From Candidatus Poseidoniaceae archaeon (GTDB taxonomy: Archaea; Thermoplasmatota; Poseidoniia; Poseidoniales; Poseidoniaceae), in NCBI GenBank assembly GCA_943789275.1, contig CALSTM010000002.1, positions 420,001-452,000 of the forward strand: 32,000 nt of DNA, written 5' to 3'. Shown in pieces: positions 16,442 through 27,833 of this stretch. A program made the translations under genes and the position numbers. The notes under the pieces were generated by a model that saw nothing but the letters and a program-made list of their open reading frames with translations, had not been told where the DNA came from and ran no database searches. How positions within the stretch are numbered: the stretch's first letter is position 1; every line of letters starts with the position of its first letter.

Positions 16442-17329
16442 TCAAGCAATGTCGCCTGATTTACTCCGTCGCTTACGGGCTTGTATCAACATGTTCAACC
16501 ATGTTGGCTTACGGACATCGCCTTCCTCATTGACAAACGAACGAACCGCTAAGGACAGTAAATCAATCAGTACAACGACGATGAAGATAAGAATCAGTAA
16601 AGCAAAGACCTTGTCGTATTGAAGGAACTTAAGATAGGTATTGATGTAGTAACCAATTCCGCCTGCACCAACAATTCCAATGACGGTACCGTGACGAACA
16701 TTGTACTCAAACATAAACATCAGTTGACTGAGTAAATGGTTACTGTTCTCTGGAATGACAATGTTCATGACTATGCTTGGGCGACTCAAGCCCATCGCCC
16801 GACCTGCTTCTAATGGATCGTTCGGCATACCTTCAAACACTTCATATTGCAATTTACCAAGATAACCTACAGTGTAGAAAGTCATAGCCAATACGCCTGA
16901 AAGAGGGCCAAAGCCAATGACAATCACGAACAAAATAGCCCAAATTAAACTTGGAAGGCTTCGGACTGCTGAAAGGAATATACGAACTGGAAGCGAAATA
17001 TACAGTGGCATCAAGTTCCTTGCAGCCAGTGAAGAAAGTGAAATTGCTCCAATAAAACCGAGAATGGTAGAAACAAAAGCAATTTTTAGCGTTTCCATCA
17101 TTCCGAGATAGCCGACTGAACAAAAGAATTCGAGATCTTGTTCACACACTGGGTAAGAGCGGGCTTCAAGAACACTCCAATTCGGCGGCCACATACTTTC
17201 TTCGAAGAACACTGCGAGATTTGACAGGCCACCCTCAAGTCGGCCCCAATCGCCTTCAACTAGACCGTCCAGCGTTTGCCACGCCAAGAAGAAAAGGATG
17301 AACAAGATACCAAACAAACGGTACTTCAT
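16442..17329 (-). CDS. phnE: ABC transporter permease, phosphonate-type (PhnE-like)
   Basis: EAGRAMGLSRPSIVMNIVIPE...FEYNVRHGTVIGIVGAGGIGYYI matches the PhnE signature (EAA loop plus GxVGAGGIG). The start overlaps the upstream ATPase stop (ATGA). Confidence 0.85.
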   Translation of the reverse strand: MKYRLFGILFILFFLAWQTLDGLVEGDWGRLEGGLSNLAVFFEESMWPPNWSVLEARSYPVCEQDLEFFCSVGYLGMMETLKIAFVSTILGFIGAISLSSLAARNLMPLYISLPVRIFLSAVRSLPSLIWAILFVIVIGFGPLSGVLAMTFYTVGYLGKLQYEVFEGMPNDPLEAGRAMGLSRPSIVMNIVIPENSNHLLSQLMFMFEYNVRHGTVIGIVGAGGIGYYINTYLKFLQYDKVFALLILIFIVVVLIDLLSLAVRSFVNEEGDVRKPTWLNMLIQARKRRSKSGDIA

Positions 17330-18012
17330 TCCTCTTCCCCCTTTGGCTGACTAAGCGTCCATTCCTCAACCGACATATCAGCGAAGTGACCATCCTGAAT
17401 CTCCCAGATACGAGTGGCAAAATCCATGGCATTGTCTTCATGGTGCTCAACCATAATGACTGCTGTTCCATCCTCTACCAACTCATGAACCGCACCCAAT
17501 ACGATGTCCACGTTCGTTTGGTCAAGTTCGCCTAGGAATTCGTCCGCCAACATAAGCCGTGGGCGTTGTGCCAGCGTGCGAGCCGTAGCGACTCTGCGTT
17601 GTTGTCCACCGGATAAGCGACGAACTGGTTCTGAGGCTTTTTCTTCGATACCAAGCGTACGAATTGCCTCGTACGTTCTTTCTTTCCGGTCTTTGAACAT
17701 AGTTCTCGACCAACCCACACTCAAGCGCGCCCCTAGAGACACATTGTGGGCTACAGTGGCATGACGAACAAGGCCAAGACGTTGCGGAATATATCCGAGG
17801 CTTCCGCGTCGCTGGACATGGAGGGAAAAATTTCCATCTAAAGGCCGAACGAGTCCCGCAATGGTTCGAATAAGCGTCGTCTTTCCAATCCCAGATGGTC
17901 CAAGGATAGCGATGATTTCACCCGCATGAACATCGAGGGTAATTGGCTTCACAAGCGGGTGGTCGTATCCTATGACCAAGCCGTTCAAGGACAAAATGAC
18001 CTCTTCGCTCAT
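17326..18012 (-). CDS. phnC: ABC transporter ATP-binding protein (PhnC-like)
   Basis: Walker A GPSGIGKTT, signature LSGGQQRRV, and Walker B LMLADEFLGELD. Confidence 0.85.
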   Translation of the reverse strand: MSEEVILSLNGLVIGYDHPLVKPITLDVHAGEIIAILGPSGIGKTTLIRTIAGLVRPLDGNFSLHVQRRGSLGYIPQRLGLVRHATVAHNVSLGARLSVGWSRTMFKDRKERTYEAIRTLGIEEKASEPVRRLSGGQQRRVATARTLAQRPRLMLADEFLGELDQTNVDIVLGAVHELVEDGTAVIMVEHHEDNAMDFATRIWEIQDGHFADMSVEEWTLSQPKGEEE

Positions 18013-18158
18013 TGCAACCCCTCTGTTGAGCCTACCGGCTGGTCTTTTTCAAACGGTGGGCTCGGGCTGTACTGTCTTGTACAGATTAACGTGTGTATGA
18101 GTATCATTTCTAGGCCCCAAAGATGCCGACGGTTTCAGTCAAGGAAGACTGTCAGAAA

Positions 18159-20270
18159 TTACTCCGCAATCTCATACTTCGAATCAAAGTATGTTGAGAT
18201 GCCAGGTATGGCACTGATGAGACTGCTGTAGCTGCCGAGGTGTTCTTGCGAATTAACTTCGACCAAACCACCTGTGTTCAACACATTCGACAGGATTTGA
18301 TCGCCACAAGCCGATTGCGGCGAAGTCGAGTCTACTTGGTGAGTTACCATCGAGTAGCATCCGGTGTAGTTCTGTCCCTGCATAGGGTAATCTTCGACGT
18401 ACATCTCAGTGTTCAATGCCAACATTGCGTTGAGTATTGCGGTTCGAGTCTGAACATCAAGTGTGGCTGGGTTGTACATCACTGGGTGAGAAGGTGCAGA
18501 ACCGTAAGAAGGTAGCAAGATGTATTCAGATTCAGGAAGACACCACTCGGCATTCTCGCTTGCATCATCCTTACCGCAGTATGAAGCGACAGTGGAATCC
18601 TTTGCAAAGGCGACATCGCCGACTCCTTCTGTCAAGCACTTCACTGCGCCGGAGTAGGAGTAGTAAGGGGTACCTGATTCTGGAATACTTGCATTTTCGT
18701 TGAAGAACGAAGTGATGGTGTCACGTAGTGATTCAATATCATCCTGTGGACCAACGACTGGAGCATATCCTTCGGAGATAAGGTGGCCCATTGGCAGTAG
18801 CATGCCAGCAGATTTGAGCCAACCGGTGTGGCACGAGGTCTTTCCTGCCATCATGGCAAACGGATCTGTGGAATCATCGTCGTCCAAGTAGGCGTTCGCA
18901 ATATCTGAACCGTTGAGAACGACTGCATGTGCGTCGTAGTGTGTGCGGCCGTCAGATTTGAGGTCAGCTGCCATTGCAGCAAGGCCGTATTCTTTCCAAC
19001 CAACCCAAGCCGCACCGCCGTCCATGAAAGCGATGTCTGCATTACCAAAGCGAAGTGCTTCAATGATGGCCCCTTCAGAAGTGACCGGGTATAGCGTTAC
19101 TGTCACGCCAGTTTGTTCAGCGATGAAATCTGCTAGAACTTGTGGGTTCTCTGCTGGGTTTTCGTAATCGTCTTTCATTTCAAAAGCGATTCGAATATTG
19201 GAAATTGTTGGGGCCACTGAATCATTGATTTCGAACTTGGTATCGTAGTATGCCGAAATACCAGGTACGTCTTCAATCAAGTTTCCATAGGATGCAAGGT
19301 GTTCTGTGGCAGTGGTAGCTGAAATTGCAGGTGTATTGAGAACATCACTGAGAATTGATTGACCCTCGGTTGAATCCTTCATTGCCACGAGTGCGTTTTG
19401 TACGAGCGTCATTGTATCTGCATCGGTGGTAGATGGGTTGTACATCACCGGGTGCGAAGGAGCATTTCCGTACGAAGGCAACAAGAGGTAATCGGATTCT
19501 GGCAAGCACCATGCTTCATTGGTTGTTGCATCCTCATTACCACAGTAAGAAGCGATGGTCGAATCCTTTGCAAAGGCAACATCACCGACACCTTCGGAAA
19601 GGCACTTGACTGCACCGCTGTAGGAGTAGTATGGAGTTCCCGAATCTGGAATACTTGCATCTTCGCTGAAGAAGTTGGTAATGGTTGAGCGCAACGATTC
19701 GACATCGTTTGCGTCTCCAATGACGTTTGCATACCCGTTGCCAATAAGGAAGCCCATTGGCAGGAGCATACCGGCTGATTTGAGCCATCCTGTGTGACAC
19801 GAAGTCTTTCCAGCCATCAAAGAAAATGGATCTGTGGAAGGGTCATCGTCAAGGTGGGCTGCTGCAATGTCTGAGTCCTTGAGAACCACAGCATGAGCGC
19901 TGTAGTACGTTCGGCCATCGGACTTTTGATCTGCTGCAATTGCATCGAGGCCGTATTGTTGCCAACCAACCCATGCTGCACCGCCATCCATGAAAGCGAT
20001 GTCTGCATTTCCAAAGCGAAGAGCTTGGAGAGCAGCGCCTTCTGAATCAATTGGATAGAGTGATACATCCATATTGAGTTCTTCACTCATGTAATCTGCG
20101 AGACGTTGAGGATTTTCGTCGACGTTTGTGTAATCGTCTTTGATGCTGTATGCAATGACAAAGTCTTCTAAGTTGCTTTCTTCTTCTGTATCGTCACTTA
20201 AACAGCCAGCAAGGGATGCTGTAGCAATTAAGAAAACAAGTATCGAGGATTTCAGTGTTCGCGTTTTCAT
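18159..20270 (-). CDS. two-lobed substrate-binding lipoprotein, transferrin-like / PhnD-like (tandem duplicated PBP)
   Basis: MKTRTLKSSILVFLIATASLAGC gives a signal peptide plus lipobox from the ATG at 20270. It has two lobes of about 330 aa, each carrying ADIAFMDGG, T(Y/H)Y.AHAVV, GKTSCHTGWLKSAG, YYSYSGAVKCL.EGVGDVAFAKDST and APSHPV. Confidence 0.85.
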   Translation of the reverse strand: MKTRTLKSSILVFLIATASLAGCLSDDTEEESNLEDFVIAYSIKDDYTNVDENPQRLADYMSEELNMDVSLYPIDSEGAALQALRFGNADIAFMDGGAAWVGWQQYGLDAIAADQKSDGRTYYSAHAVVLKDSDIAAAHLDDDPSTDPFSLMAGKTSCHTGWLKSAGMLLPMGFLIGNGYANVIGDANDVESLRSTITNFFSEDASIPDSGTPYYSYSGAVKCLSEGVGDVAFAKDSTIASYCGNEDATTNEAWCLPESDYLLLPSYGNAPSHPVMYNPSTTDADTMTLVQNALVAMKDSTEGQSILSDVLNTPAISATTATEHLASYGNLIEDVPGISAYYDTKFEINDSVAPTISNIRIAFEMKDDYENPAENPQVLADFIAEQTGVTVTLYPVTSEGAIIEALRFGNADIAFMDGGAAWVGWKEYGLAAMAADLKSDGRTHYDAHAVVLNGSDIANAYLDDDDSTDPFAMMAGKTSCHTGWLKSAGMLLPMGHLISEGYAPVVGPQDDIESLRDTITSFFNENASIPESGTPYYSYSGAVKCLTEGVGDVAFAKDSTVASYCGKDDASENAEWCLPESEYILLPSYGSAPSHPVMYNPATLDVQTRTAILNAMLALNTEMYVEDYPMQGQNYTGCYSMVTHQVDSTSPQSACGDQILSNVLNTGGLVEVNSQEHLGSYSSLISAIPGISTYFDSKYEIAE
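18162..20162 (-). repeat. in-frame tandem duplication (register 966 nt) forming the two lobes
   Basis: Lobe 2 (18162..19196) versus lobe 1 (19218..20162). For example, 19021..19055 and 19987..20021 differ at one base, and gatttgagcca occurs at both 18811 and 19777. Confidence 0.85.
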
Positions 20271-20285
20271 GTTATGACCTACGGG

Positions 20286-20339
20286 TTTAGGCCGCCCTAA
20301 AAACCCGATGTACATAAAGATTTAGGCCACCCTAAAAAA
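20286..20339. promoter_or_regulatory. two copies of a palindromic box TTTAGG-N4-CCTAAA(AA) upstream of the binding-protein gene
   Basis: TTTAGGCCGCCCTAAAAA at 20286..20303 and TTTAGGCCACCCTAAAAAA at 20321..20339, 35 nt apart. They flank a TATA-like CTTTATGTA on the gene strand and lie 16-69 nt upstream of the ATG at 20270. Confidence 0.4.
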
Positions 20340-20380: not shown

Positions 20381-21274
20381 TCATGAAGAGAGCCATTCCA
20401 AAGCGTACGATTCAGCGTAACGGTCAGAAGTCAAACCGGGATGCCCAATGGGGCGAACGATGACCAAAATATCGAGTGTCCCCCCCCACGAACTGGTGGC
20501 GATGCAAAGGACCTCTCCAACCTTGAGACCCTCGCCTGATGCACCGATGGATAGACTACGAAGTTCGTATAACCGTACAAGCACTGATTCGTCAACCCCT
20601 GCTGAAGTCGATGAGTAATGATGGGTGTCTTCAGCAAGCATGGGTTCGAGTTTCATTTCATCCACATCTAGGCGAAAGCCAGACAATTCTTGGTCGAGAA
20701 GTTCGATTGCTTGATTGAGACGCCCCTGTTCCATGTCGAAAAGAGAGGCGAGGAGGAATGCTGAAGACTCCGCCCCAATTGGACTGTATTGGTAAGGCAG
20801 GCGAAGCGTAAGGGATTGAACAATCTCTACATCAAGCCCCCCAGATTCTGGCAACATGAGCCAAGTATACTGTTCTCCAGCAGGATAAAGCGGTGCGTTG
20901 GGATTTTCAGCCAACAAAGGATTCCCCCATTCAGAAGGTGCAACTGGCCCTGAAACGGGGGAAAAGCCGCCGACGAACAGCATCACGATAAGTCCAACAC
21001 TAACGATGATTCGCGGTTTCCGGTAGGAATCCCAAGCCATACGCCCAGCCGGACTGAGAATGGATAACAAGAGCATTACGGGGCCAGCCAGCAAAAAACC
21101 ACCTGGCAGAATCCAAAGAAGAATGAAGAAGGAAACGAGTGCATGAAAGCCGTAAGGCCCGTACAGGTCTTGCCACACAAATTCCTCATCTGCTGCCCAT
21201 TTACGGCGTTCTAGAAACACGTGAGCAGTTACAAAGACAAGAAGAAAAATCGATGGAACAAAATCCTCAATCAT
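20381..21274 (-). CDS. hypothetical membrane protein (N-terminal TM helices plus a soluble C-terminal domain)
   Basis: 297-aa ORF with 3-4 hydrophobic helices in the first 120 aa. No family recognised. Confidence 0.6.
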   Translation of the reverse strand: MIEDFVPSIFLLVFVTAHVFLERRKWAADEEFVWQDLYGPYGFHALVSFFILLWILPGGFLLAGPVMLLLSILSPAGRMAWDSYRKPRIIVSVGLIVMLFVGGFSPVSGPVAPSEWGNPLLAENPNAPLYPAGEQYTWLMLPESGGLDVEIVQSLTLRLPYQYSPIGAESSAFLLASLFDMEQGRLNQAIELLDQELSGFRLDVDEMKLEPMLAEDTHHYSSTSAGVDESVLVRLYELRSLSIGASGEGLKVGEVLCIATSSWGGTLDILVIVRPIGHPGLTSDRYAESYALEWLSS

Positions 21275-23287: not shown

Positions 23288-25300
23288 ATGGCAGCACGCA
23301 CTACAGTCGGACTTTCCAACCCCCACACCCGAGTTTTCACTGCAATTCTCATGGTCTTCTTGATGTTCTTTATGGGCACATCTTCTCTCTACACGCCTGA
23401 AAAGGTGCTGGAAAACGAAGACAATGCAGCACCTACAGATGGCCGCCAAGGACTCGCAATAGAAGATGAATGTGAAGGACTGAAGTTTGAAGACCTCTTC
23501 GATTATGATTTTGCTAATTTCAAGGTCTTTATCGGTGATGATTGGGCGACCGCAGAAATGGACGCTGGAGCGTTTGTGAACGGAAGCAAATCTGCCGTTG
23601 TACGAGACAACCTTGACGGTTTATTCGAAGGGCTTTCTGGTGGAGGTAACGACTACATCAGTACCGATGAACGAGATGCAGTACGCGCCATTGGACCGAA
23701 GTGCATTGGAGCAATGGACACACGAATCGGTATGAAAGAAGGAATCCCTCACCGAGGTGCACCGGATTGGAACAATCTTACGTTTGTCGAAGACGGCATT
23801 GGACTGGAAGAAATTGACCTCGTTCCTGAAAACCACCCTCAAGAGCGTACGTGCCAAAATCTAGGGTCAGCCAACGGATGCAAAGAAGTCCCTGTGAGCA
23901 TTACAGAAGACCTACAAATCATGATGTTCCTGGCGGAGGACCAAGCAAACAATGTCCGCTTTGACAAGCTTCCAAACAGCGGAGATTCGAATTTCACATT
24001 GGCTCTAAACGTCACGAACATGTCGTATGCAAACTTAGAACTGAACTTCCCCCTCAAGCAAGGGTTACGCATGAGTAATTATTCGATTCAAGACACCGTT
24101 ACCAACAACGATGGAACAATGACCGTTACGGAAAATACACAATTAACCGGACCTGAGGCACTGTATCTACCCGATGGCCGACTCCGTGTGAACCAAGTGG
24201 TGACTTACGCTGCGGGAGAATACCCAATTCAACGTGACTTGTTTATCGATTTCACAACAATGGCACCTGAAACCAACGAAGCACCTGAATGGTCATCGAA
24301 TGCTCCTGAAGACGGAACAGTCATCCCGATGTTGGCCGGACAGAACATCGTCGTAGCGGGCGAAAAGACCGAAATGTGGGCGACCGATGACAGCGGCTGG
24401 GGAATAGATTGCACATTCACTGAAAGTGGATGGTCATCCTCACTCGATGGTGAAGGAAACTTCATGATTGAAAATCAAAACTCACAAGCCACTTCCTCCG
24501 ACGCAGAATGCTATGCGGTTGACCCGTTTGGTGAAGCTTCAATCGATTCTCGAAACTGGAGTTTTGGAGAAGTACTTACCGCATCTGCAGTTCTTTCTTC
24601 GACTGGAGACAGTATTGAATTCACGCTTTCACCAACTGGATTAGTCAATGAAATGTCAATTAACGCTCATGCGCACCAGTCAACTGCTATGGGTCAGATG
24701 CGTACAACTACGCTCTCATCTGACGATGCTGTTCTCACCCTACCCCTCGACGGCCTATCCCCTGGCCTGGTCATGGTCATGGGACAAGCACAAAGTTCTA
24801 CAATGCTCGACCTTGATTTTATGCTGAACTTCGGGCTTCAGAAAGCCAGTCTTGCACCACTCATCAGCGTCTCAAAGAACCTTGATGGAAACAACGCCAC
24901 ATGGGAAGCGAGTGGCCTTTCCTTCACCCTTAAAGGCGAGGTAGTGGACCCTGATGGTGAAGATGTTACCATTTCGCTGTTGCTGTGTGGTTATTCGACC
25001 AACGATTTCCTTCGAGACGGAAGCGGATGGGAAATCAACGTCAACATCGTTTCTTGCTCATCCCAAAACCCTCCTGTCACCGCCTACGACATCGTGTTGA
25101 CTGCTACCGATGAATCGGGAACAATTACGACATACACGGTGTTTGTCCCAGACCCATACGCTTCAACCGGCGACTCAACAAGCACGCCTGACGACGGAGA
25201 GAATTCCGAAGAGGAAGCGTTGCCTGCATTGTCGATGATGGCGACACTGAGCATCACATTGCTTGGGGCTGCCTTTGTTGGCAGACAACGAAGAGACTGA
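23288..25300 (+). CDS. large extracytoplasmic protein anchored at both ends (N-terminal signal-anchor, C-terminal TM plus basic tail)
   Basis: N-terminal VFTAILMVFLMFFMGTSSLY and C-terminal LPALSMMATLSITLLGAAFVGRQRRD. The acidic Thr/Asn-rich ectodomain has no recognised catalytic motif. Confidence 0.7.
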   Translation: MAARTTVGLSNPHTRVFTAILMVFLMFFMGTSSLYTPEKVLENEDNAAPTDGRQGLAIEDECEGLKFEDLFDYDFANFKVFIGDDWATAEMDAGAFVNGSKSAVVRDNLDGLFEGLSGGGNDYISTDERDAVRAIGPKCIGAMDTRIGMKEGIPHRGAPDWNNLTFVEDGIGLEEIDLVPENHPQERTCQNLGSANGCKEVPVSITEDLQIMMFLAEDQANNVRFDKLPNSGDSNFTLALNVTNMSYANLELNFPLKQGLRMSNYSIQDTVTNNDGTMTVTENTQLTGPEALYLPDGRLRVNQVVTYAAGEYPIQRDLFIDFTTMAPETNEAPEWSSNAPEDGTVIPMLAGQNIVVAGEKTEMWATDDSGWGIDCTFTESGWSSSLDGEGNFMIENQNSQATSSDAECYAVDPFGEASIDSRNWSFGEVLTASAVLSSTGDSIEFTLSPTGLVNEMSINAHAHQSTAMGQMRTTTLSSDDAVLTLPLDGLSPGLVMVMGQAQSSTMLDLDFMLNFGLQKASLAPLISVSKNLDGNNATWEASGLSFTLKGEVVDPDGEDVTISLLLCGYSTNDFLRDGSGWEINVNIVSCSSQNPPVTAYDIVLTATDESGTITTYTVFVPDPYASTGDSTSTPDDGENSEEEALPALSMMATLSITLLGAAFVGRQRRD

Positions 25301-25356: not shown

Positions 25357-26784
25357 ATGTTTACAGGTGTAATTGAGTCCAAAAGCCACGAAGGTGGTTT
25401 TCTTGTTTCGTTCACCGGTTCATCACCGGCCCTTGAATCGATTATCATCAATGCTGAATCTGGTATTTACATTGGCAAAGTCGATGCAGTCCTTGGGAAC
25501 ACCAACGCTCCTCTTGCCCACGTGGCTCACATTGACCGAAAACTCGACCTTGATGCTCTCATCGGTGTCGAAGTAGGAATCCGCGCCAAAAAGCAACGAG
25601 AAGAGCGTAGCAGAGGATCTGAAAGAGACGGTCGAAGGGACGATCGTAGAGGTGGCCGAGATGACGGAGGATACCAAAGCAGAGACCGACAGGGTCGGCG
25701 CTTCGAACGGAACGACCGTGGTCGCAGTGACAACCGTGGCGGTGGTGACTGGGATTGTCCAAAATGTCAAAATTCAAACTTCGCATTCCGAACCGAATGC
25801 AACCGATGCGGTGAACCCAAAGGACACGGTGGAGGCCGTGGGCGAAGCGATGACCGCAGAGGCGGACGAGACGACCGTGGGTACCAAAGTCGAGACCGAC
25901 AAGGCGGTCGCTTTGAACGAAACGACCGAGGTCGCGGTGACAACCGTGGCGGTAGCGACTGGGATTGTCCAAAATGTCAAAATTCAAACTTCGCATTCCG
26001 AACCGAATGCAACCGATGCGGTGAACCCAAAGGACACGGTGGAGGCCGTGGACGAAGCGATGACCGTAGAGGCGGACGAGACGACCGTAGAGGCGGACGA
26101 GACGACCGGGGTAACAGAGGCGGACGCGGTGGAGAAATCTACAACGATAACGACTGGGATTGTCCAAAATGCCAGAACTCAAATTTCGCATTCCGGAACG
26201 AATGCAACCGATGCGGAGAACCTCGCGGTGGTGGCGGAGGCCGTGGTCGAAGCGATGACCGCAGAGGTGGCCGGGACGATCGAAGTCGGGGCGGTGACCG
26301 CGGTTACCAAAGCAGAGACCGACAAGGTGGACGCTTTGAGAGAGGAGGAGGCGGTGGTAACGAAGACCGTCGCGATGGCGATTGGGACTGTTCCAAATGT
26401 CAGAATTCTAATTTTGCCTTCCGAACAGAATGCAACCGATGCGGTGCATCACGTGGTGGAGGCGGAGGGCGTGGACCTCGCAGAGACACTCGAGAACGAA
26501 CGCCTCAACGCAATTCCGGTGATCGACCTCCTCGAAGAGAGTTTTCAGAACGACCCCCGCGAAGAGAGGGTGATCGACCTCCACGCAGAGATGGACGCGA
26601 CCGCCGCGTTGAACGAGGAACTCAGAATCGAGGTTCGTACAATCAAAGTCGCTCTCGAGGCGATGATCGACCAGCGGAACGCAAATCACGTGAACCTCGA
26701 ACCTTCCGAAAATCACGAGGAAATGGTCCGGGCCATGCCCACAACCGACCTCCTAAACCATTGACTCGAGAACGAGAAGATTGA
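25357..26784 (+). CDS. Gar1-like beta-barrel protein with Arg/Gly/Asp-rich repeats and four RanBP2-type zinc fingers
   Basis: AGGTGA lies 4 nt upstream of the ATG. Residues 1-78 resemble archaeal Gar1. There are four copies of DWDC(P/S)KCQNSNFAFR(T/N)ECNRCG, which fit W-x-C-x2-C-x3-N-x6-C-x2-C. RGG/RG-rich spacers and an RPPRR(E/D) x3 tail complete the protein. Confidence 0.8.
   Translation: MFTGVIESKSHEGGFLVSFTGSSPALESIIINAESGIYIGKVDAVLGNTNAPLAHVAHIDRKLDLDALIGVEVGIRAKKQREERSRGSERDGRRDDRRGGRDDGGYQSRDRQGRRFERNDRGRSDNRGGGDWDCPKCQNSNFAFRTECNRCGEPKGHGGGRGRSDDRRGGRDDRGYQSRDRQGGRFERNDRGRGDNRGGSDWDCPKCQNSNFAFRTECNRCGEPKGHGGGRGRSDDRRGGRDDRRGGRDDRGNRGGRGGEIYNDNDWDCPKCQNSNFAFRNECNRCGEPRGGGGGRGRSDDRRGGRDDRSRGGDRGYQSRDRQGGRFERGGGGGNEDRRDGDWDCSKCQNSNFAFRTECNRCGASRGGGGGRGPRRDTRERTPQRNSGDRPPRREFSERPPRREGDRPPRRDGRDRRVERGTQNRGSYNQSRSRGDDRPAERKSREPRTFRKSRGNGPGHAHNRPPKPLTRERED
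25640..26460 (+). repeat. in-frame coding tandem repeats (units of 210, 195 and 228 nt)
   Basis: The zinc-finger units start at 25747, 25957, 26152 and 26380. 25747..25841 is identical to 25957..26051 (95 nt). Confidence 0.85.
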
Positions 26785-26828: not shown

Positions 26829-27833
26829 TTGAAGCGTACGATGAGAACGATGCTGAAAAAGCCTACGAGGAAGCTCGTAAGGCGGTCAAGCTTAGACCCT
26901 GAGCACATCGATGCCTGGCAAATTTGTGCAGAAACGATTCTCCCTCCGAAAGGAGAAAAGCCTTCCTTGATTCAAGCGGCAAAGTCGCTTGCTGCTGTTC
27001 GAAAAATCATCGAATTAGATCCGAACAGAACAGCAATGTGGATGCTTGGAGGACGTTTGTTGACAGATGAACTTGGTCTCCTCAGTGAAGGATTACAATG
27101 GTGGCAAGACCTTCGACACCATTTGCCAAAGGAAGTAACACCATTGGTTGAACAAGCATCACTTCTCGCCGATATGGGACATTATCTTGAGGCAAAGTAC
27201 CGACTTGACACCATCATTGAAGAAAACATGGATGGCGGCCCGAGCCAAATTGCAAAGATTCACCAATTGCGGAATCAAGTTATTGCTGCGGCAAATCTTC
27301 AACCAAGTGAGCATTTCAAGCCGTGGGAAAAACACCACAATGGATGGGGCGCTATCGAATCAAAGATGGGCAAAGGCCCTGTGTCGGAAAGTTTCCTGTT
27401 CATGATTACTACGGTTCCGGTTTTGTTTGCCGTAGTGATTTTTTCGAGGCAATTGGCCGGTGAAGGATGGGGTGCATTCTGTCTTACCAGTCTGATCGTA
27501 TTCGGCACCGTATTGTTCGGAATGCGATTTTCCAAAAATATGTTTCATAAAATCAACCGGCCAGCGTTTAATCTTCTTCGCGCTATGAATTTTGAAGCAA
27601 ATACGGGTTATTCAATCATCCATGAAGGCATTCGAACCTCAACGTTGTACATGTACATCATGCAAAGAAAGCCTGTTGCTTGGCAAGAGCGTTCGATGAA
27701 AATAATTGAAGATGCCACACCATTGCCGAAAAATTGGAAACCAAAATTCCCAGACTTTGATTCTCATCTTGATGAAATAGGATTCATTGATGAAGGTGAG
27801 GAAGATTCCTTTGAACCGTTTGAAGAAGAATAA
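26829..27833 (+). CDS. TPR-like N-terminal / two-TM membrane protein with an acidic C-terminus (5' end probably frameshifted, see findings)
   Basis: Long ORF containing TPR-like LDPEHIDAW and ELDPNRTAMW segments and hydrophobic helices FLFMITTVPVLFAVVIF and AFCLTSLIVFGTVLFGM. The track start is a TTG with no SD. Confidence 0.6.
   Translation: MKRTMRTMLKKPTRKLVRRSSLDPEHIDAWQICAETILPPKGEKPSLIQAAKSLAAVRKIIELDPNRTAMWMLGGRLLTDELGLLSEGLQWWQDLRHHLPKEVTPLVEQASLLADMGHYLEAKYRLDTIIEENMDGGPSQIAKIHQLRNQVIAAANLQPSEHFKPWEKHHNGWGAIESKMGKGPVSESFLFMITTVPVLFAVVIFSRQLAGEGWGAFCLTSLIVFGTVLFGMRFSKNMFHKINRPAFNLLRAMNFEANTGYSIIHEGIRTSTLYMYIMQRKPVAWQERSMKIIEDATPLPKNWKPKFPDFDSHLDEIGFIDEGEEDSFEPFEEE

What the first reader, a model, noticed from the sequence alone, without database searches (positions are those of the whole stretch)
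16442..20339. Two-lobed transferrin-like binding lipoprotein wired to a PhnC/PhnE-type ABC importer: candidate novel uptake system and PhnD-to-transferrin intermediate
The ORF at 18159..20315 (probable start 20270) consists of two tandem periplasmic-binding-protein lobes of about 330 aa. Each lobe carries, in the correct order and spacing, the sequence blocks I know from vertebrate serotransferrin (Tf) lobes:
- ADIAFMDGG, compare Tf ADAVTLDAG (Fe ligand Asp63).
- TYYSAHAVV / THYDAHAVV, compare FYYAVAVV (Tyr95).
- GKTSCHTGWLKSAGMLLPMG, compare [20 protein letters not shown] (carbonate anchors Thr120/Arg124; here Thr plus Lys).
- YYSYSGAVKCL(S/T)EGVGDVAFAKDST, compare [25 protein letters not shown] (Tyr188).
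- APSHPV, compare VPSHTV (His249).
Using the numbering of the 718-aa track translation, the candidate ligand sets are D110/Y138/Y232/H288 and D432/Y460/Y554/H610. Cys173/Cys238 and Cys258/Cys270 fall where the Tf disulfides 118-194 and 227-241 lie. The first third of each lobe (ALRFGNADIAF...) looks more like E. coli PhnD (GMRFNKVDIAW). The two downstream genes are PhnC/PhnE-type ABC components. The protein therefore looks intermediate between phosphonate-type SBPs and transferrins. As I recall, the phytotransferrin literature has proposed such an ancestry. The signal peptide and lipobox (LAGC) indicate a surface-tethered lipoprotein. I do not know of any archaeal description of a transferrin-type Fe(III)/synergistic-anion site feeding a prokaryotic ABC importer through an independently duplicated two-lobe receptor. 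The substrate, whether Fe3+ or phosphonate/phosphite, remains open.
Basis: partly seen in the sequence, partly recalled or inferred. Interest (0 to 1): 0.9.

Follow-up and report, generated by a model that had tools for sequence, protein, structure and literature searches.

The report
Archaeal transferrin-like iron uptake operon
A marine archaeon carries a surface lipoprotein made of two transferrin-like lobes that appears to feed an ABC importer now annotated as a "phosphonate transporter"; the evidence points to iron uptake and suggests that animal transferrins descend from archaeal proteins of this kind.

Summary
ORF 18159..20270(-) (true start Met16) encodes a lipoprotein with two lobes that are 63% identical. 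Each lobe scores about equally on Pfam Transferrin (77-79 bits) and Phosphonate-bd (69-83 bits). Each keeps the transferrin Fe/carbonate set (Asp, Tyr, Thr, Lys-for-Arg, Tyr, His). Solved PhnD and PtxB carry G/Y/H/D and G/Y/H/Y at the four Fe-ligand positions.

The organism is a Marine Group II archaeon (Poseidoniales). The family is confined to Thermoplasmatota among named prokaryotic hits and always pairs with a PhnE-type permease and an ATPase.

New evidence favours iron. A 16-bp palindrome (TTTAGG-N4-CCTAAA) occurs twice in the window, flanking the promoter, and is conserved in 76/92 related loci. In MGIII and other relatives it fills the divergent region beside a DtxR-family iron-type repressor gene. 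In another relative it also precedes a Fea1 (algal iron-assimilation) gene. A three-lobe relative sits by a FecCD cluster. No phosphonate catabolic genes are present.

Rooted trees place all eukaryotic transferrins, unicellular holozoans closest, inside archaeal diversity (90-100% of NJ bootstraps). I found no paper describing this. Fe(III) binding is inferred, not shown.

The parts
20321..20336 (-). Operator 1: palindrome TTTAGGGTGGCCTAAA, immediately upstream of the TATA-like box (BRE position)
   Evidence: The core TTAGG-N4-CCTAA occurs only twice in the 32 kb (expected 0.01; 0/100 shuffles reach 2). It is conserved in 76/92 related loci. Motif and placement.
20311..20320 (-). TATA-like A/T box (TCTTTATGTA) between the two operators
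   Evidence: Sequence. An A/T-rich box directly follows operator 1 in MGIIa, MGIIb and MGIII loci. Its role as a TATA box is inferred.
20286..20301 (-). Operator 2: palindrome TTTAGGGCGGCCTAAA, 35 bp from operator 1 and 16 bp upstream of the start codon (expected transcription-start region)
18159..20270 (-). Two-lobe transferrin-like substrate-binding lipoprotein (703 aa from Met16, stop codon included)
   Evidence: AF2 full-length model: pLDDT 83.8, pTM 0.79. The top 50 PDB fold hits are all bilobal transferrins.
20202..20270 (-). Signal peptide and lipobox (MKTRTLKSSILVFLIATASLAGC; lipidated Cys = Cys38 of the 718-aa track)
   Evidence: Sequence. A lipobox is conserved in archaeal homologs. 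Lipidation is inferred.
19197..20180 (-). Lobe 1 (residues 46-373 of the 718-aa track): candidate Fe ligands D110, Y138, Y232, H288; anion site T175, K179
   Evidence: AF2 model: pLDDT 90.2, pTM 0.85. Foldseek matches transferrins and PtxB/AioX, both at about 1e-14.
18162..19190 (-). Lobe 2 (residues 376-718): candidate Fe ligands D432, Y460, Y554, H610; anion site T497, K501
18300..18416 (-). Lobe-2-specific insertion with a Cys/His mini-module (…YTGCYSMVTHQVDSTSPQSACG…), modelled as a small beta sheet
   Evidence: 31-residue gap in the lobe 1/lobe 2 alignment. Modelled as a beta-sheet with pLDDT 67-71. Similar module in the archaeal Fea1-domain protein and in the three-lobe P0036. Coordinates are approximate.
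17326..18012 (-). ABC transporter ATPase (PhnC-like)
   Evidence: Pfam ABC_tran 99.4 bits. Best NCBIfam match is PhnC TIGR02315 at 129 bits, below the cut-off of 266. Conserved downstream of the SBP in all contexts.
16442..17329 (-). ABC transporter permease, PhnE type (overlaps the ATPase gene by 4 bp)
   Evidence: TIGR01097 PhnE 225.5 bits > cut-off 216.7. Partner permeases in five divergent operons also pass, at 229-249 bits.

Best explanation
This is a metal-repressed, high-affinity Fe(III) uptake system of a Marine Group II archaeon. The receptor is a surface-tethered lipoprotein with two transferrin-type lobes. Each lobe is proposed to bind one Fe3+ through Asp, Tyr, Tyr and His. A synergistic anion, most likely carbonate in seawater, would be held by Thr, Lys and a helix N-terminus, as in transferrin. 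The loaded lobe would dock on a homodimeric PhnE-type permease powered by a PhnC-like ATPase, which imports the iron. Transcription would be controlled by a DtxR-family repressor binding two TTTAGG-N4-CCTAAA operators that flank the TATA box and cover the transcription start, so the operon would switch on when iron is scarce.

Shown here: the homology, ligand conservation, operon conservation, operator conservation, and operator/regulator co-location in relatives.

Inferred: Fe3+ and carbonate binding, the direction of transport, lipidation, and repressor identity in this genome (the regulator is not in the window).

Evolution: the protein belongs to a Thermoplasmatota SBP lineage that stands between PhnD/PtxB-type oxyanion binders and eukaryotic transferrins, and it probably represents the prokaryotic stock from which eukaryotic transferrins arose.
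For: Homology: both Pfam families match each lobe. The closest solved sequences are lactoferrins/transferrins at E=3e-30. The fold matches both transferrins and PtxB/AioX, and the full-length model matches bilobal transferrins only.

Ligands: the pattern D-Y-T-K-Y-H plus four Cys is present in 267/440 lobes and in every lobe of the core clade, whether one-, two- or three-lobed. Characterised PtxB and E. coli PhnD have G/Y/H/Y and G/Y/H/D at the four Fe-ligand positions, so the tetrad is not a phosph(on)ate signature.

Context: a DtxR-family repressor gene lies next to the SBP operon in L010/L011, L093, L094 and nine MGIII-type loci. A Fea1 iron-assimilation gene lies directly upstream in L012. 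A Peripla_BP_2/FecCD/ABC cluster lies beside the three-lobe relative. A ZIP transporter lies nearby in L094.

Regulation: the operator occurs twice in the window and nowhere else. There are 146 sites in 992 kb of related loci, 145 of them 1-68 bp upstream of an SBP, Fea1 or ATPase ORF, and the remaining site lies 33 bp upstream of the minus-strand one-lobe paralog in L012. The op1-TATA-op2-ATG layout is conserved. Four to five copies fill the divergent DtxR/SBP intergenic region of L094 and three copies that of L043. The MGIII and L094 regulators carry AEM… and ACRMEH, which match the DtxR primary Fe-site residues Met10/Cys102/Glu105/His106 (residue roles from memory).

Negative evidence for phosphonate: there are no phosphonate or phosphite catabolic genes in the 32 kb or in any sampled neighbourhood. 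A single-cell genome survey found no phosphonate-consuming archaea although MGII were 80% of the archaea (bioRxiv 10.1101/2020.11.04.368217). The SBP fails the NCBIfam PhnD-type cut-offs.
Against: No biochemical data exist, and I could not extract model coordinates to measure ligand geometry. The permease passes the PhnE equivalog cut-off, and no PhnE-type permease is known to move iron. The anion site (Thr, Lys, helix N-terminus) could hold phosphate, phosphite or phosphonate on its own. Cysteine-free archaeal PhnD-like proteins (Nitrosopumilus), which NCBI names phosphate/phosphite/phosphonate SBPs and which lie in islands interpreted as phosphorus-related, also carry D-Y-Y-H and Thr. So either the tetrad does not by itself prove iron binding, or those proteins are also misnamed. 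One one-lobe paralog lies next to a GDPD gene. The DtxR-family regulators reach no metal-specific NCBIfam cut-off and score slightly better on MntR models. The regulator for this genome was not found in the window or by database search. The DtxR-adjacent P0151 has Ser and Thr in place of Asp and Lys.
Confidence: 0.68

Rival explanations
1. It is what it is annotated as: a phosphonate, phosphite or other oxyanion uptake system (PhnCDE/PtxABC-like) whose binding protein merely looks like transferrin because the two families share ancestry.
For: Phosphonate-bd scores 69-83 bits per lobe. The permease passes the PhnE equivalog cut-off and the best ATPase match is PhnC. JGI and NCBI name it in this family, and Tully 2019 lists phosphonate transport as a core MGII trait. 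A Thr/Lys/helix N-terminus anion site is present. The fold matches PtxB and AioX as well as it matches transferrin. A GDPD gene lies beside one paralog. D-Y-Y-H is also found in Nitrosopumilus proteins named as phosph(on)ate SBPs.
Against: It fails TIGR01098 (97.7 < 112.05) and the PhnD equivalog (70 < 261). The residues at the phosph(on)ate-contacting positions of solved PhnD/PtxB are replaced by the transferrin set: His becomes Tyr232, Tyr/Asp becomes His288, Gly becomes Asp110, and the S-T-S motif becomes K-S-A. No C-P lyase, phosphonatase or phosphite dehydrogenase gene lies nearby. No phosphonate-consuming archaea were found in a SAG survey. The neighbours and the operator point to metal regulation.
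Confidence: 0.12
2. It imports another metal, or a metal-anion complex, rather than Fe3+. Candidates are manganese (Mn3+/Mn2+) or another hard cation that transferrin-type sites can hold.
For: The adjacent DtxR-family regulators score higher on MntR than on DtxR NCBIfam models, all below cut-off. The L010 regulator lacks the Cys/His of the Fe site, and the L093 regulator has Glu at the Met10 position. A ZIP transporter is nearby in L094. From general knowledge, transferrins bind many tri- and tetravalent metals, as the PDB entries illustrate (Ti, Al, Yb, Bi, Cr).
Against: A two-tyrosinate site with carbonate strongly favours Fe3+ among biologically scarce ions (general knowledge). The MGIII and L094 regulators carry the Fe-type Met/Cys/Glu/His signature. 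The co-regulated or neighbouring genes are iron-specific families: Fea1 and FecCD/Peripla_BP_2.
Confidence: 0.1
3. On evolution only: the archaeal genes are not an ancestral intermediate but a transferrin captured from a eukaryote and re-wired to a resident PhnCE transporter.
For: The prokaryotic distribution is narrow: only Thermoplasmatota among named hits. The family is sparse, with 378 clusters out of 1.84 billion proteins. MGII share the marine plankton habitat with protists.
Against: Rooted NJ trees put eukaryotes inside archaeal diversity in 90-100% of bootstraps and archaea inside eukaryotes in 0-3%. The archaeal proteins keep PhnD-type features that metazoan transferrins have largely lost: the RFG motif and a high PF12974 score. 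The cognate PhnE-type partner is kept across lineages down to 37% identity. One-lobe forms exist in several archaeal lineages.
Confidence: 0.15

Closest known systems
Eukaryotic transferrins (Pfam PF00405: serotransferrin, lactoferrin, melanotransferrin; ichthyosporean and green-algal transferrins)
   Same: Homologous lobe fold. Asp/Tyr/Tyr/His ligand positions. Thr plus a basic residue plus a helix N-terminus at the anion site. The Cys pair equivalent to Tf 118-194. Multi-lobe forms arising by tandem duplication. Membrane-tethered versions exist on both sides: melanotransferrin and Abeoforma P0176 with a C-terminal anchor, and P0137 in archaea.
   Different: Lys replaces Arg at the anion site. 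The second disulfide is placed differently. Lobe duplication is independent and the inter-lobe geometry differs (TM 0.3-0.43). The protein is lipoprotein-anchored. It is encoded in an operon with an ABC permease and ATPase, so delivery would be by docking on a transporter rather than by receptor-mediated endocytosis. It retains PhnD-like sequence features such as the RFG motif.
PhnD / PtxB / HtxB / AioX oxyanion-binding proteins (Pfam PF12974, TIGR01098) with PhnC/PhnE-type ABC partners
   Same: Same SBP subfamily by Pfam and by fold. The same type of permease (passes the PhnE equivalog) and a PhnC-like ATPase. The same operon layout. The oxyanion-binding helix N-terminus is retained.
   Different: It fails the NCBIfam SBP cut-offs. 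The ligand-contacting residues of solved PhnD/PtxB are replaced by the transferrin metal set. It has two disulfide-forming Cys pairs and a tandem two-lobe architecture. Neighbours and operators point to metal rather than phosphorus regulation.
Bacterial ferric-binding protein systems (FbpABC / FutABC / SAR11_1238-type; often called 'bacterial transferrins')
   Same: The proposed function is the same: a periplasmic or surface SBP binds free Fe3+ through tyrosinates plus a synergistic anion and hands it to a type I ABC importer under iron-responsive repression.
   Different: It is a different SBP family, with no Pfam hit to the FbpA-type families, and similar only at the level of the general class II SBP fold. 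Here the binding protein is a true sequence-level member of the transferrin family.
Phytotransferrin ISIP2a / Fea1 family (PF07692)
   Same: A proposed carbonate-dependent Fe3+ capture protein at the cell surface of marine plankton. An archaeal Fea1-domain lipoprotein gene sits directly upstream of a family member and carries the same operator (L012). The two share a short Cys/His module.
   Different: There is no detectable sequence homology between the Fea1 domain and the lobes themselves (one search compared only the window's upstream gene; one search found only the mini-module). Phytotransferrin works by endocytosis in eukaryotes.

Membership tests
Transferrin family (PF00405) | Significant match to the family profile | tested here: met
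   149.5 bits for the whole protein and 79.3 and 76.9 bits per lobe, against a cut-off of 20.3. phmmer to PDB lactoferrins gives E=3e-30.
Transferrin family (PF00405) | Four Fe3+ ligands (Asp, Tyr, Tyr, His) at homologous positions in each lobe | tested here: met
   D110/Y138/Y232/H288 and D432/Y460/Y554/H610. They align to the lactoferrin ligands and are invariant in the core clade. Spatial convergence could not be measured because no coordinates are returned.
Transferrin family (PF00405) | Synergistic-anion site: Thr and Arg at the N-terminus of a helix | tested here: inconclusive
   Thr is conserved (T175/T497). Arg is replaced by Lys (K179/K501). Lys is also the commonest residue at this column in the ichthyosporean and many other eukaryotic hits.
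Transferrin family (PF00405) | Conserved intradomain disulfides | tested here: inconclusive
   C173/C238 align with the Tf 118-194 pair. C258/C270 do not correspond to Tf 227-241 as a pair but are shared with ichthyosporean transferrins. Disulfide formation was not tested.
Transferrin family (PF00405) | Bilobal architecture derived from the ancestral eukaryotic duplication, with the vertebrate-type lobe arrangement | tested here: not met
   The lobes of the window type, of P0121 and of P0036 group within archaea (bootstraps 99/97, 96, 83). The full-length model aligns both lobes to transferrins but with TM 0.3-0.43 and rmsd about 20 A.
Transferrin family (PF00405) | Reversible Fe3+ binding that depends on carbonate | not testable with these tools
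   This needs purified protein: UV-vis charge-transfer band and bicarbonate dependence.
PhnD-type phosphate/phosphite/phosphonate SBP (PF12974; TIGR01098; TIGR03431) | Match to the Pfam family profile | tested here: met
   146.4 bits for the whole protein and 83.1 and 68.7 bits per lobe, against a cut-off of 27.
PhnD-type phosphate/phosphite/phosphonate SBP (PF12974; TIGR01098; TIGR03431) | Reaches the curated NCBIfam cut-offs | tested here: not met
   TIGR01098: 97.7 < 112.05. TIGR03431 (PhnD): 70.3 < 261.1.
PhnD-type phosphate/phosphite/phosphonate SBP (PF12974; TIGR01098; TIGR03431) | Ligand-contacting residues of solved members (His at the Tyr232 position, Tyr or Asp at the His288 position, S-T-S helix cap) | tested here: not met
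   PtxB has G/Y/H/Y and E. coli PhnD has G/Y/H/D at the four positions, and S-T-S aligns with K-S-A. This was read through the alignments of P0255 to 5o2j and 3p7i and of P0255 to the window lobe. The residue roles in PhnD are from memory.
PhnD-type phosphate/phosphite/phosphonate SBP (PF12974; TIGR01098; TIGR03431) | PhnE-type permease and PhnC ATPase partners | tested here: met
   The permease passes the PhnE equivalog (225.5 > 216.7). The ATPase's best match is PhnC but below cut-off (129 < 266). The partners are conserved in divergent operons.
PhnD-type phosphate/phosphite/phosphonate SBP (PF12974; TIGR01098; TIGR03431) | Genomic link to phosphonate or phosphite catabolism | tested here: not met
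   None is present in the window or in the neighbourhoods. Whole genomes were not examined.
DtxR-family-controlled iron regulon | Palindromic operator overlapping the promoter of the regulated gene | tested here: met
   Two copies flank the TATA-like box and cover the start region. The layout is conserved.
DtxR-family-controlled iron regulon | A DtxR-family repressor that binds this operator in a metal-dependent way | tested here: inconclusive
   The regulator gene is adjacent and divergent, with operator arrays in the shared intergenic region, in L094 and in nine MGIII-type loci. No regulator gene lies in the window. Binding was not tested.
FbpA/FutA-type bacterial ferric-binding proteins | Sequence membership in the FbpA-type SBP families | tested here: not met
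   No such Pfam or NCBIfam family appears among the hits. The resemblance is functional only.

The most novel reading that the evidence does not exclude
Abundant marine archaea (MGII/MGIII) take up inorganic Fe(III) with a true transferrin, carbonate-dependent and repressed by a DtxR-type regulator, through a transporter that every genome paper counts as 'phosphonate uptake'. Eukaryotic transferrins, first seen in unicellular relatives of animals, descend from this archaeal SBP lineage by gene transfer. The PhnD-to-transferrin switch from oxyanion binding to metal-plus-oxyanion binding would then have happened in archaea, with Nitrosopumilus-type cysteine-free proteins as an even earlier step.
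Probability: 0.4. Interest if true: 0.9.

Novelty: new variant of a known kind. Interest (0 to 1): 0.82.

Why it matters
There are three reasons.

1. It would re-assign a 'core' trait of one of the most abundant archaeal groups in the surface ocean from phosphorus to iron acquisition. That changes how MGII enter models of marine iron cycling. If carbonate is the synergistic anion, as in phytotransferrin, their iron uptake would also become sensitive to seawater carbonate chemistry.

2. It supplies a concrete, living intermediate for a long-standing question: where transferrin came from. The protein still has its ABC transporter, an ancestral one-lobe form and a PhnD-like N-terminal region, and it identifies unicellular holozoans as the closest eukaryotic holders.

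3. It defines a testable archaeal metal regulon (operator, DtxR-family repressor, transferrin-like SBPs, Fea1) in a lineage with no cultured representative.

Tried and rejected
- **Literature.** No paper in the held library links MGII or Thermoplasmatota to transferrin. Several 'transferrin' hits were 'transferring'. The McQuaid 2018 phytotransferrin paper is not held, so I cannot exclude that its trees already included archaeal sequences.
- **Upstream gene.** The window's 297-aa upstream gene (20381..21274) is not a diverged Fea1. It is conserved in 40 loci, but the operators lie downstream of it.
- **L010 operator.** L010, a high-GC lineage with a DtxR neighbour, has no related palindrome.
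- **Generic scans.** The promoter/terminator scan was uninformative.
- **Regulator search.** A database search for the L094 regulator gave only four unnamed hits, so the regulator acting in MGIIa genomes is unidentified.
- **Other papers.** The metaproteomics paper and the Rinke 2019 paper gave nothing on this protein.
- **Tetrad as proof of iron.** I first took the D-Y-Y-H tetrad as decisive for iron, then found it in Nitrosopumilus proteins named as phosphonate SBPs. Its value was partly restored by its absence from solved PhnD/PtxB.
- **Tree method.** No ML tree software was available, so the trees are bootstrapped neighbour-joining only.

Full report

Yes. The ORF 18159..20315(-) is present. 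Its product splits into two lobes that are 63% identical (E=2e-160). They differ mainly by a 31-residue insertion in lobe 2.

- Pfam Transferrin scores 149.5 bits and Phosphonate-bd 146.4 bits on the whole protein.
- Per lobe the scores are 79.3 versus 83.1 (lobe 1) and 76.9 versus 68.7 (lobe 2).
- By single-sequence comparison the closest solved proteins are lactoferrins, melanotransferrin and transferrins (best E=3e-30), with no PhnD among the best 60.
- Those alignments put D110, Y138, T175, K179, Y232 and C173/C238 on the transferrin Asp, Tyr, Thr, Arg, Tyr and Cys118/Cys194 equivalents.

The downstream genes are an ABC ATPase and a permease. The ATPase's best model is PhnC, below cut-off. 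The permease passes the PhnE equivalog cut-off.

Two details need correction. The start is Met16 (20270), as shown in section 5. The second Cys pair is not the Tf 227-241 pair, although it is shared with ichthyosporean transferrins.

**2. Whose gene is it, and how widespread is the family?**

Close homologs (74-97% identity) come from Poseidoniales, that is, Marine Group II archaea. NCBI names them 'PhnD/SsuA/transferrin family substrate-binding protein' and JGI names them 'ABC-type phosphate/phosphonate transport system substrate-binding protein'.

An exhaustive profile-free search of 1.84 billion representative proteins found only 378 clusters at E<=0.001. The hits fall into three groups:
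- Lipobox-bearing forms with one, two or three lobes. Every one that carries a name is from Euryarchaeota or Thermoplasmatota.
- Multi-lobe proteins of unicellular holozoans (Creolimax, Amoebidium, Ichthyophonus, Abeoforma, Chromosphaera, Corallochytrium, Sphaeroforma) and of a green alga (Bryopsis).
- Sequences with metazoan-type transferrin N-termini, which I did not look up by name.

A scan of one genome per GTDB species found 393 relatives. The best 80 are all MGII, MGIII or other Thermoplasmatota, except one contig binned as Yoonia.

**3. Anatomy and conservation of the site**

I cut 440 lobes out of all retrieved proteins and aligned them to the window lobes. The ten-position pattern D-Y-C-T-K-Y-C-C-C-H is found in 267 of them. 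It is present in every lobe of the clade that contains the window protein, including one-lobe and three-lobe forms. The ichthyosporean proteins share the full pattern, including the second Cys pair.

Several divergent archaeal paralog clades have lost the ligands, among them P0122, P0123, P0126, P0130 and P0131. They presumably do something else.

The tetrad needs a caveat. Cysteine-free archaeal proteins that match only Phosphonate-bd also carry Asp, Tyr, Thr, Tyr and His at these columns. These include a Nitrosopumilus protein that NCBI names as a phosphate/phosphite/phosphonate SBP.

To see what characterised binders have at these positions, I aligned that protein to solved structures. P. 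stutzeri PtxB has G/Y/H/Y and E. coli PhnD has G/Y/H/D at the four Fe-ligand positions. Their S-T-S helix cap aligns with K-S-A. So the tetrad is not the signature of a phosphite or phosphonate site. It is, however, older than the cysteines and the basic residue that mark transferrins proper.

**4. Structure**

The AF2 model of lobe 1 is confident (pLDDT 90.2, pTM 0.85). Foldseek finds two groups at the same E-value, about 1e-14:
- PtxB and AioX, with 14-17% identity and about 290-310 aligned columns.
- Transferrin lobes, with 20-23% identity and about 360-380 aligned columns.

The best TM-scores are to open or apo forms.

The full-length model (pLDDT 83.8, pTM 0.79) has a disordered inter-lobe linker and a small beta-sheet formed by the lobe-2 insertion. 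Its 50 best PDB matches are all bilobal transferrins with both lobes aligned. Global TM is only 0.3-0.43, so the lobes are transferrin-like but their mutual arrangement is not.

I could not obtain coordinates, so the convergence of the ligands on one cleft rests on homology.

**5. A conserved operator and promoter**

In the 110 bp between the upstream gene and Met16 there are two copies of a palindrome with core TTAGG-N4-CCTAA. These are the only two in the 32 kb. The number expected by chance is 0.01, and none of 100 shuffles reached two.

The same core occurs in 76 of the 92 loci fetched by then. The consensus is the 16-mer TTTAGG-N4-CCTAAA. Of 146 sites in 992 kb, 145 lie 1-68 bp upstream of a long ORF, which is a transferrin-like SBP gene, the Fea1 gene or the cognate ATPase gene. 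The remaining site lies 33 bp upstream of the minus-strand one-lobe paralog in L012.

The layout is conserved in MGIIa, MGIIb and MGIII while the sequence between the elements varies:
1. Operator 1.
2. An A/T-rich TATA-like box.
3. About 20 nt of variable sequence.
4. Operator 2, sometimes doubled.
5. The start codon.

Operators at the BRE/TATA and at the transcription start are the usual way archaeal repressors work (general knowledge). In the window, the second operator lies inside the Met1-Met16 extension, which fixes Met16 as the start.

**6. Which regulator, and which signal?**

The non-syntenic neighbourhoods are the informative ones.
- **L010/L011.** A one-lobe relative with its own ATPase and PhnE-type permease lies directly downstream of a DtxR-family gene (Fe_dep_repr_C 106 bits, FeoA 58 bits).
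- **L093.** Another one-lobe relative has a DtxR-family gene about 1.4 kb upstream and a one-mismatch palindrome just before its start.
- **L094.** A one-lobe relative (57% identity, full ligand set) is transcribed divergently from a DtxR-family gene, with a ZIP transporter beyond it. The 232-bp shared intergenic region holds four exact and one single-mismatch copies of the palindrome, one of them 35 bp from the regulator's own start.
- **Nine more loci.** A local tblastn with the L094 regulator revealed the same divergent arrangement in L043, L047-L051, L056, L057 and L075, which are MGIII and related genomes. Their two-lobe SBPs are 62-75% identical to the window's, and three operator copies sit in the short intergenic region. 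These regulators have the three-domain DtxR/IdeR architecture.
- **Metal-site residues.** The MGIII and L094 regulators carry AEM… and ACRMEH. As I recall, these correspond to Met10 and Cys102/Glu105/His106 of the primary Fe site of DtxR, as opposed to Asp/Glu in MntR. NCBIfam cannot assign a metal, because every metal-specific model is far below cut-off and MntR models score slightly higher.

Two further associations point to iron. In L012 a Fea1-domain lipoprotein gene (63 bits, cut-off 25) sits directly upstream of a two-lobe family member and has the operator 44 bp before its start. The three-lobe relative P0036 lies beside a Peripla_BP_2/FecCD/ABC cluster and has two operators.

Evidence pointing the other way is thinner. 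One paralog lies next to a GDPD gene. The Nitrosopumilus-type phn clusters are interpreted as phosphorus islands.

No phosphonate or phosphite catabolic gene is in the window or in any neighbourhood sampled. A survey of single-cell genomes found no phosphonate-consuming archaea although MGII made up 80% of the archaea.

**7. Mechanism proposed**

A lipid-anchored, two-lobe receptor on the outer face of the membrane binds Fe3+ with a synergistic anion in each lobe. It docks on a PhnE-type permease dimer, and the PhnC-like ATPase drives import. When iron is sufficient, a DtxR-family repressor occupies the operators.

The SBP-ATPase-permease unit is conserved in seven distinct contexts, down to 37% identity. 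All partner permeases tested pass the PhnE cut-off. The coupling is therefore functional, not accidental.

What remains inferred is the ligand, the anion, lipidation, and the repressor in this genome. I put the iron reading at about 0.68, oxyanion-only at about 0.12, and another metal at about 0.10.

**8. Is it an intermediate?**

Three lines of evidence agree.

First, per-lobe Pfam scores form a gradient:

| Group | Transferrin (bits/lobe) | Phosphonate-bd (bits/lobe) |
|---|---|---|
| Metazoan-type transferrins | 320-350 | 15-29 |
| Bryopsis (green alga) | 158 | 15 |
| Ichthyosporeans | 84-113 | 35-56 |
| Window protein | 77-79 | 69-83 |
| Cysteine-free archaeal PhnD-like | 0-22 | 113-171 |

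Second, the fold matches both families equally. The N-terminal third keeps the PhnD/PtxB 'RFG..D.A' motif.

Third, the trees. I built neighbour-joining trees of 79 lobes rooted on the cysteine-free proteins. Eukaryotic lobes are monophyletic (87-95%). They nest within archaeal diversity in 90-100% of bootstraps across six variants of trimming, distance correction and taxon sampling. The reverse topology appears in 0-3%. The specific sister group of the eukaryotes, one-lobe Thermoplasmatota, is weakly supported (50%).

The lobe duplications in archaea are separate from the eukaryotic ones and occurred more than once.

The caveats are distance methods only, 183-254 columns, an archaeal outgroup, and no bacterial PhnD in the tree.

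**9. What is known, and what is new?**

That transferrin and phytotransferrin share ancestry with phosphonate-binding periplasmic proteins has been proposed. A review attributes this to McQuaid et al. 2018 (PMC7676907). Databases already tag these archaeal proteins with both Pfam domains.

The following are absent from everything I could search:
- Any description of an archaeal transferrin-type protein.
- Its ABC partners.
- Its DtxR-type operator.
- Its link to Fea1.
- Its position relative to holozoan transferrins.

Instead, MGII genome papers count the locus as phosphonate transport (PMC6336850). A recent survey of marine SBP transcripts excluded PF00405 from the prokaryotic SBP families (PMC11485210).

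I therefore rate it a new variant of a known kind, with high interest. The main reservation is that the substrate is still inferred.

Noticed in passing
L012:6576-7835 (+), operator at L012:6519-6532: An archaeal lipoprotein with a Fea1 domain (PF07692, 63 bits). This is the algal low-iron-inducible / ISIP2a phytotransferrin family. It lies directly upstream of a two-lobe transferrin-like gene and carries the same palindromic operator. Among the fetched loci it is found only in L012/L013.
   Followed up: partly
window ~18300-18416 (-); L012 Fea1 protein residues 305-372; L001:5075-5260: A short Cys/His module (CY[NS]MV[ST]H…C) forms the lobe-2-specific insertion of the window protein. It is repeated in the third lobe of the three-lobe P0036 and also occurs twice at the C-terminus of the archaeal Fea1-domain protein (46% identity over 68 residues). 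Its function is unknown; it could be a shared docking or metal-handling element.
   Followed up: partly
P0255 (Nitrosopumilus), P0239, P0262; alignment A2: Cysteine-free archaeal SBPs match only Pfam Phosphonate-bd and are named phosphate/phosphite/phosphonate SBPs, yet they carry the transferrin Asp/Tyr/Thr/Tyr/His at the aligned columns. Solved PhnD and PtxB do not. They may be an earlier step towards metal binding, or they may be misnamed.
   Followed up: partly
L001:2018-5488 and L002:2600-6070: A three-lobe family member (P0036, 1156 aa) has all three ligand sets intact. It has no adjacent PhnC/PhnE. It lies next to a 793-aa CarboxypepD_reg-domain protein and a Peripla_BP_2/FecCD/ABC_tran cluster, with two operators upstream.
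   Followed up: partly
P0122 (L012:8001-10136), P0123, P0126, P0130, P0131: Several two-lobe archaeal paralog clades have lost most of the Fe-ligand set in one or both lobes (e.g. A-H-T-D-P-E in lobe 2 of P0122), yet they keep the cysteines and the ABC partners. This suggests a new ligand or a non-binding lobe.
   Followed up: no
L069, L072, L074, L083-L085, L045, L012/L013 (e.g. L012:10182-10195): In MGIIb-type loci an extra copy of the operator lies between the SBP gene and the ATPase gene, 9-28 bp before the ATPase ORF. This implies a separately repressed internal promoter. The window has none in its 146-bp SBP-ATPase spacer.
   Followed up: no
L073 (CAXRJJ010000119.1, 'Yoonia sp.' MAG): A contig binned as the alphaproteobacterium Yoonia carries a one-lobe family member (67% identity), the archaeal operator, and a homolog of the window's upstream 297-aa gene. 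It is most likely a mis-binned archaeal contig rather than a bacterial occurrence.
   Followed up: partly
window 20381-21274 (-): A 297-aa predicted membrane protein with no Pfam family lies immediately upstream of the operon. It is conserved at this position in 40 related loci (23-84% identity) but lies outside the operator-controlled unit. It is unrelated to Fea1.
   Followed up: partly
P0137 (L095:350-1579) and P0176 (Abeoforma): One archaeal one-lobe member and one ichthyosporean member replace the lipobox or secretion signal arrangement with a C-terminal transmembrane anchor. This is reminiscent of membrane-bound melanotransferrin and phytotransferrin. The archaeal one lies next to a GSDH gene, a convergent ABC pair and a weak flavodoxin hit.
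   Followed up: no
window 25357-26784 (+): A 475-aa archaeal protein has four Zn_ribbon_RanBP fingers (113.8 bits), a domain better known from eukaryotes. A homolog is conserved in the syntenic MGII loci (L003-L005).
   Followed up: no
window 23288-25300 (+) and 26829-27833 (+): These are large acidic proteins with no Pfam match. The 670-aa one ends in a hydrophobic segment followed by basic residues, which looks like a C-terminal membrane anchor of a surface protein.
   Followed up: no
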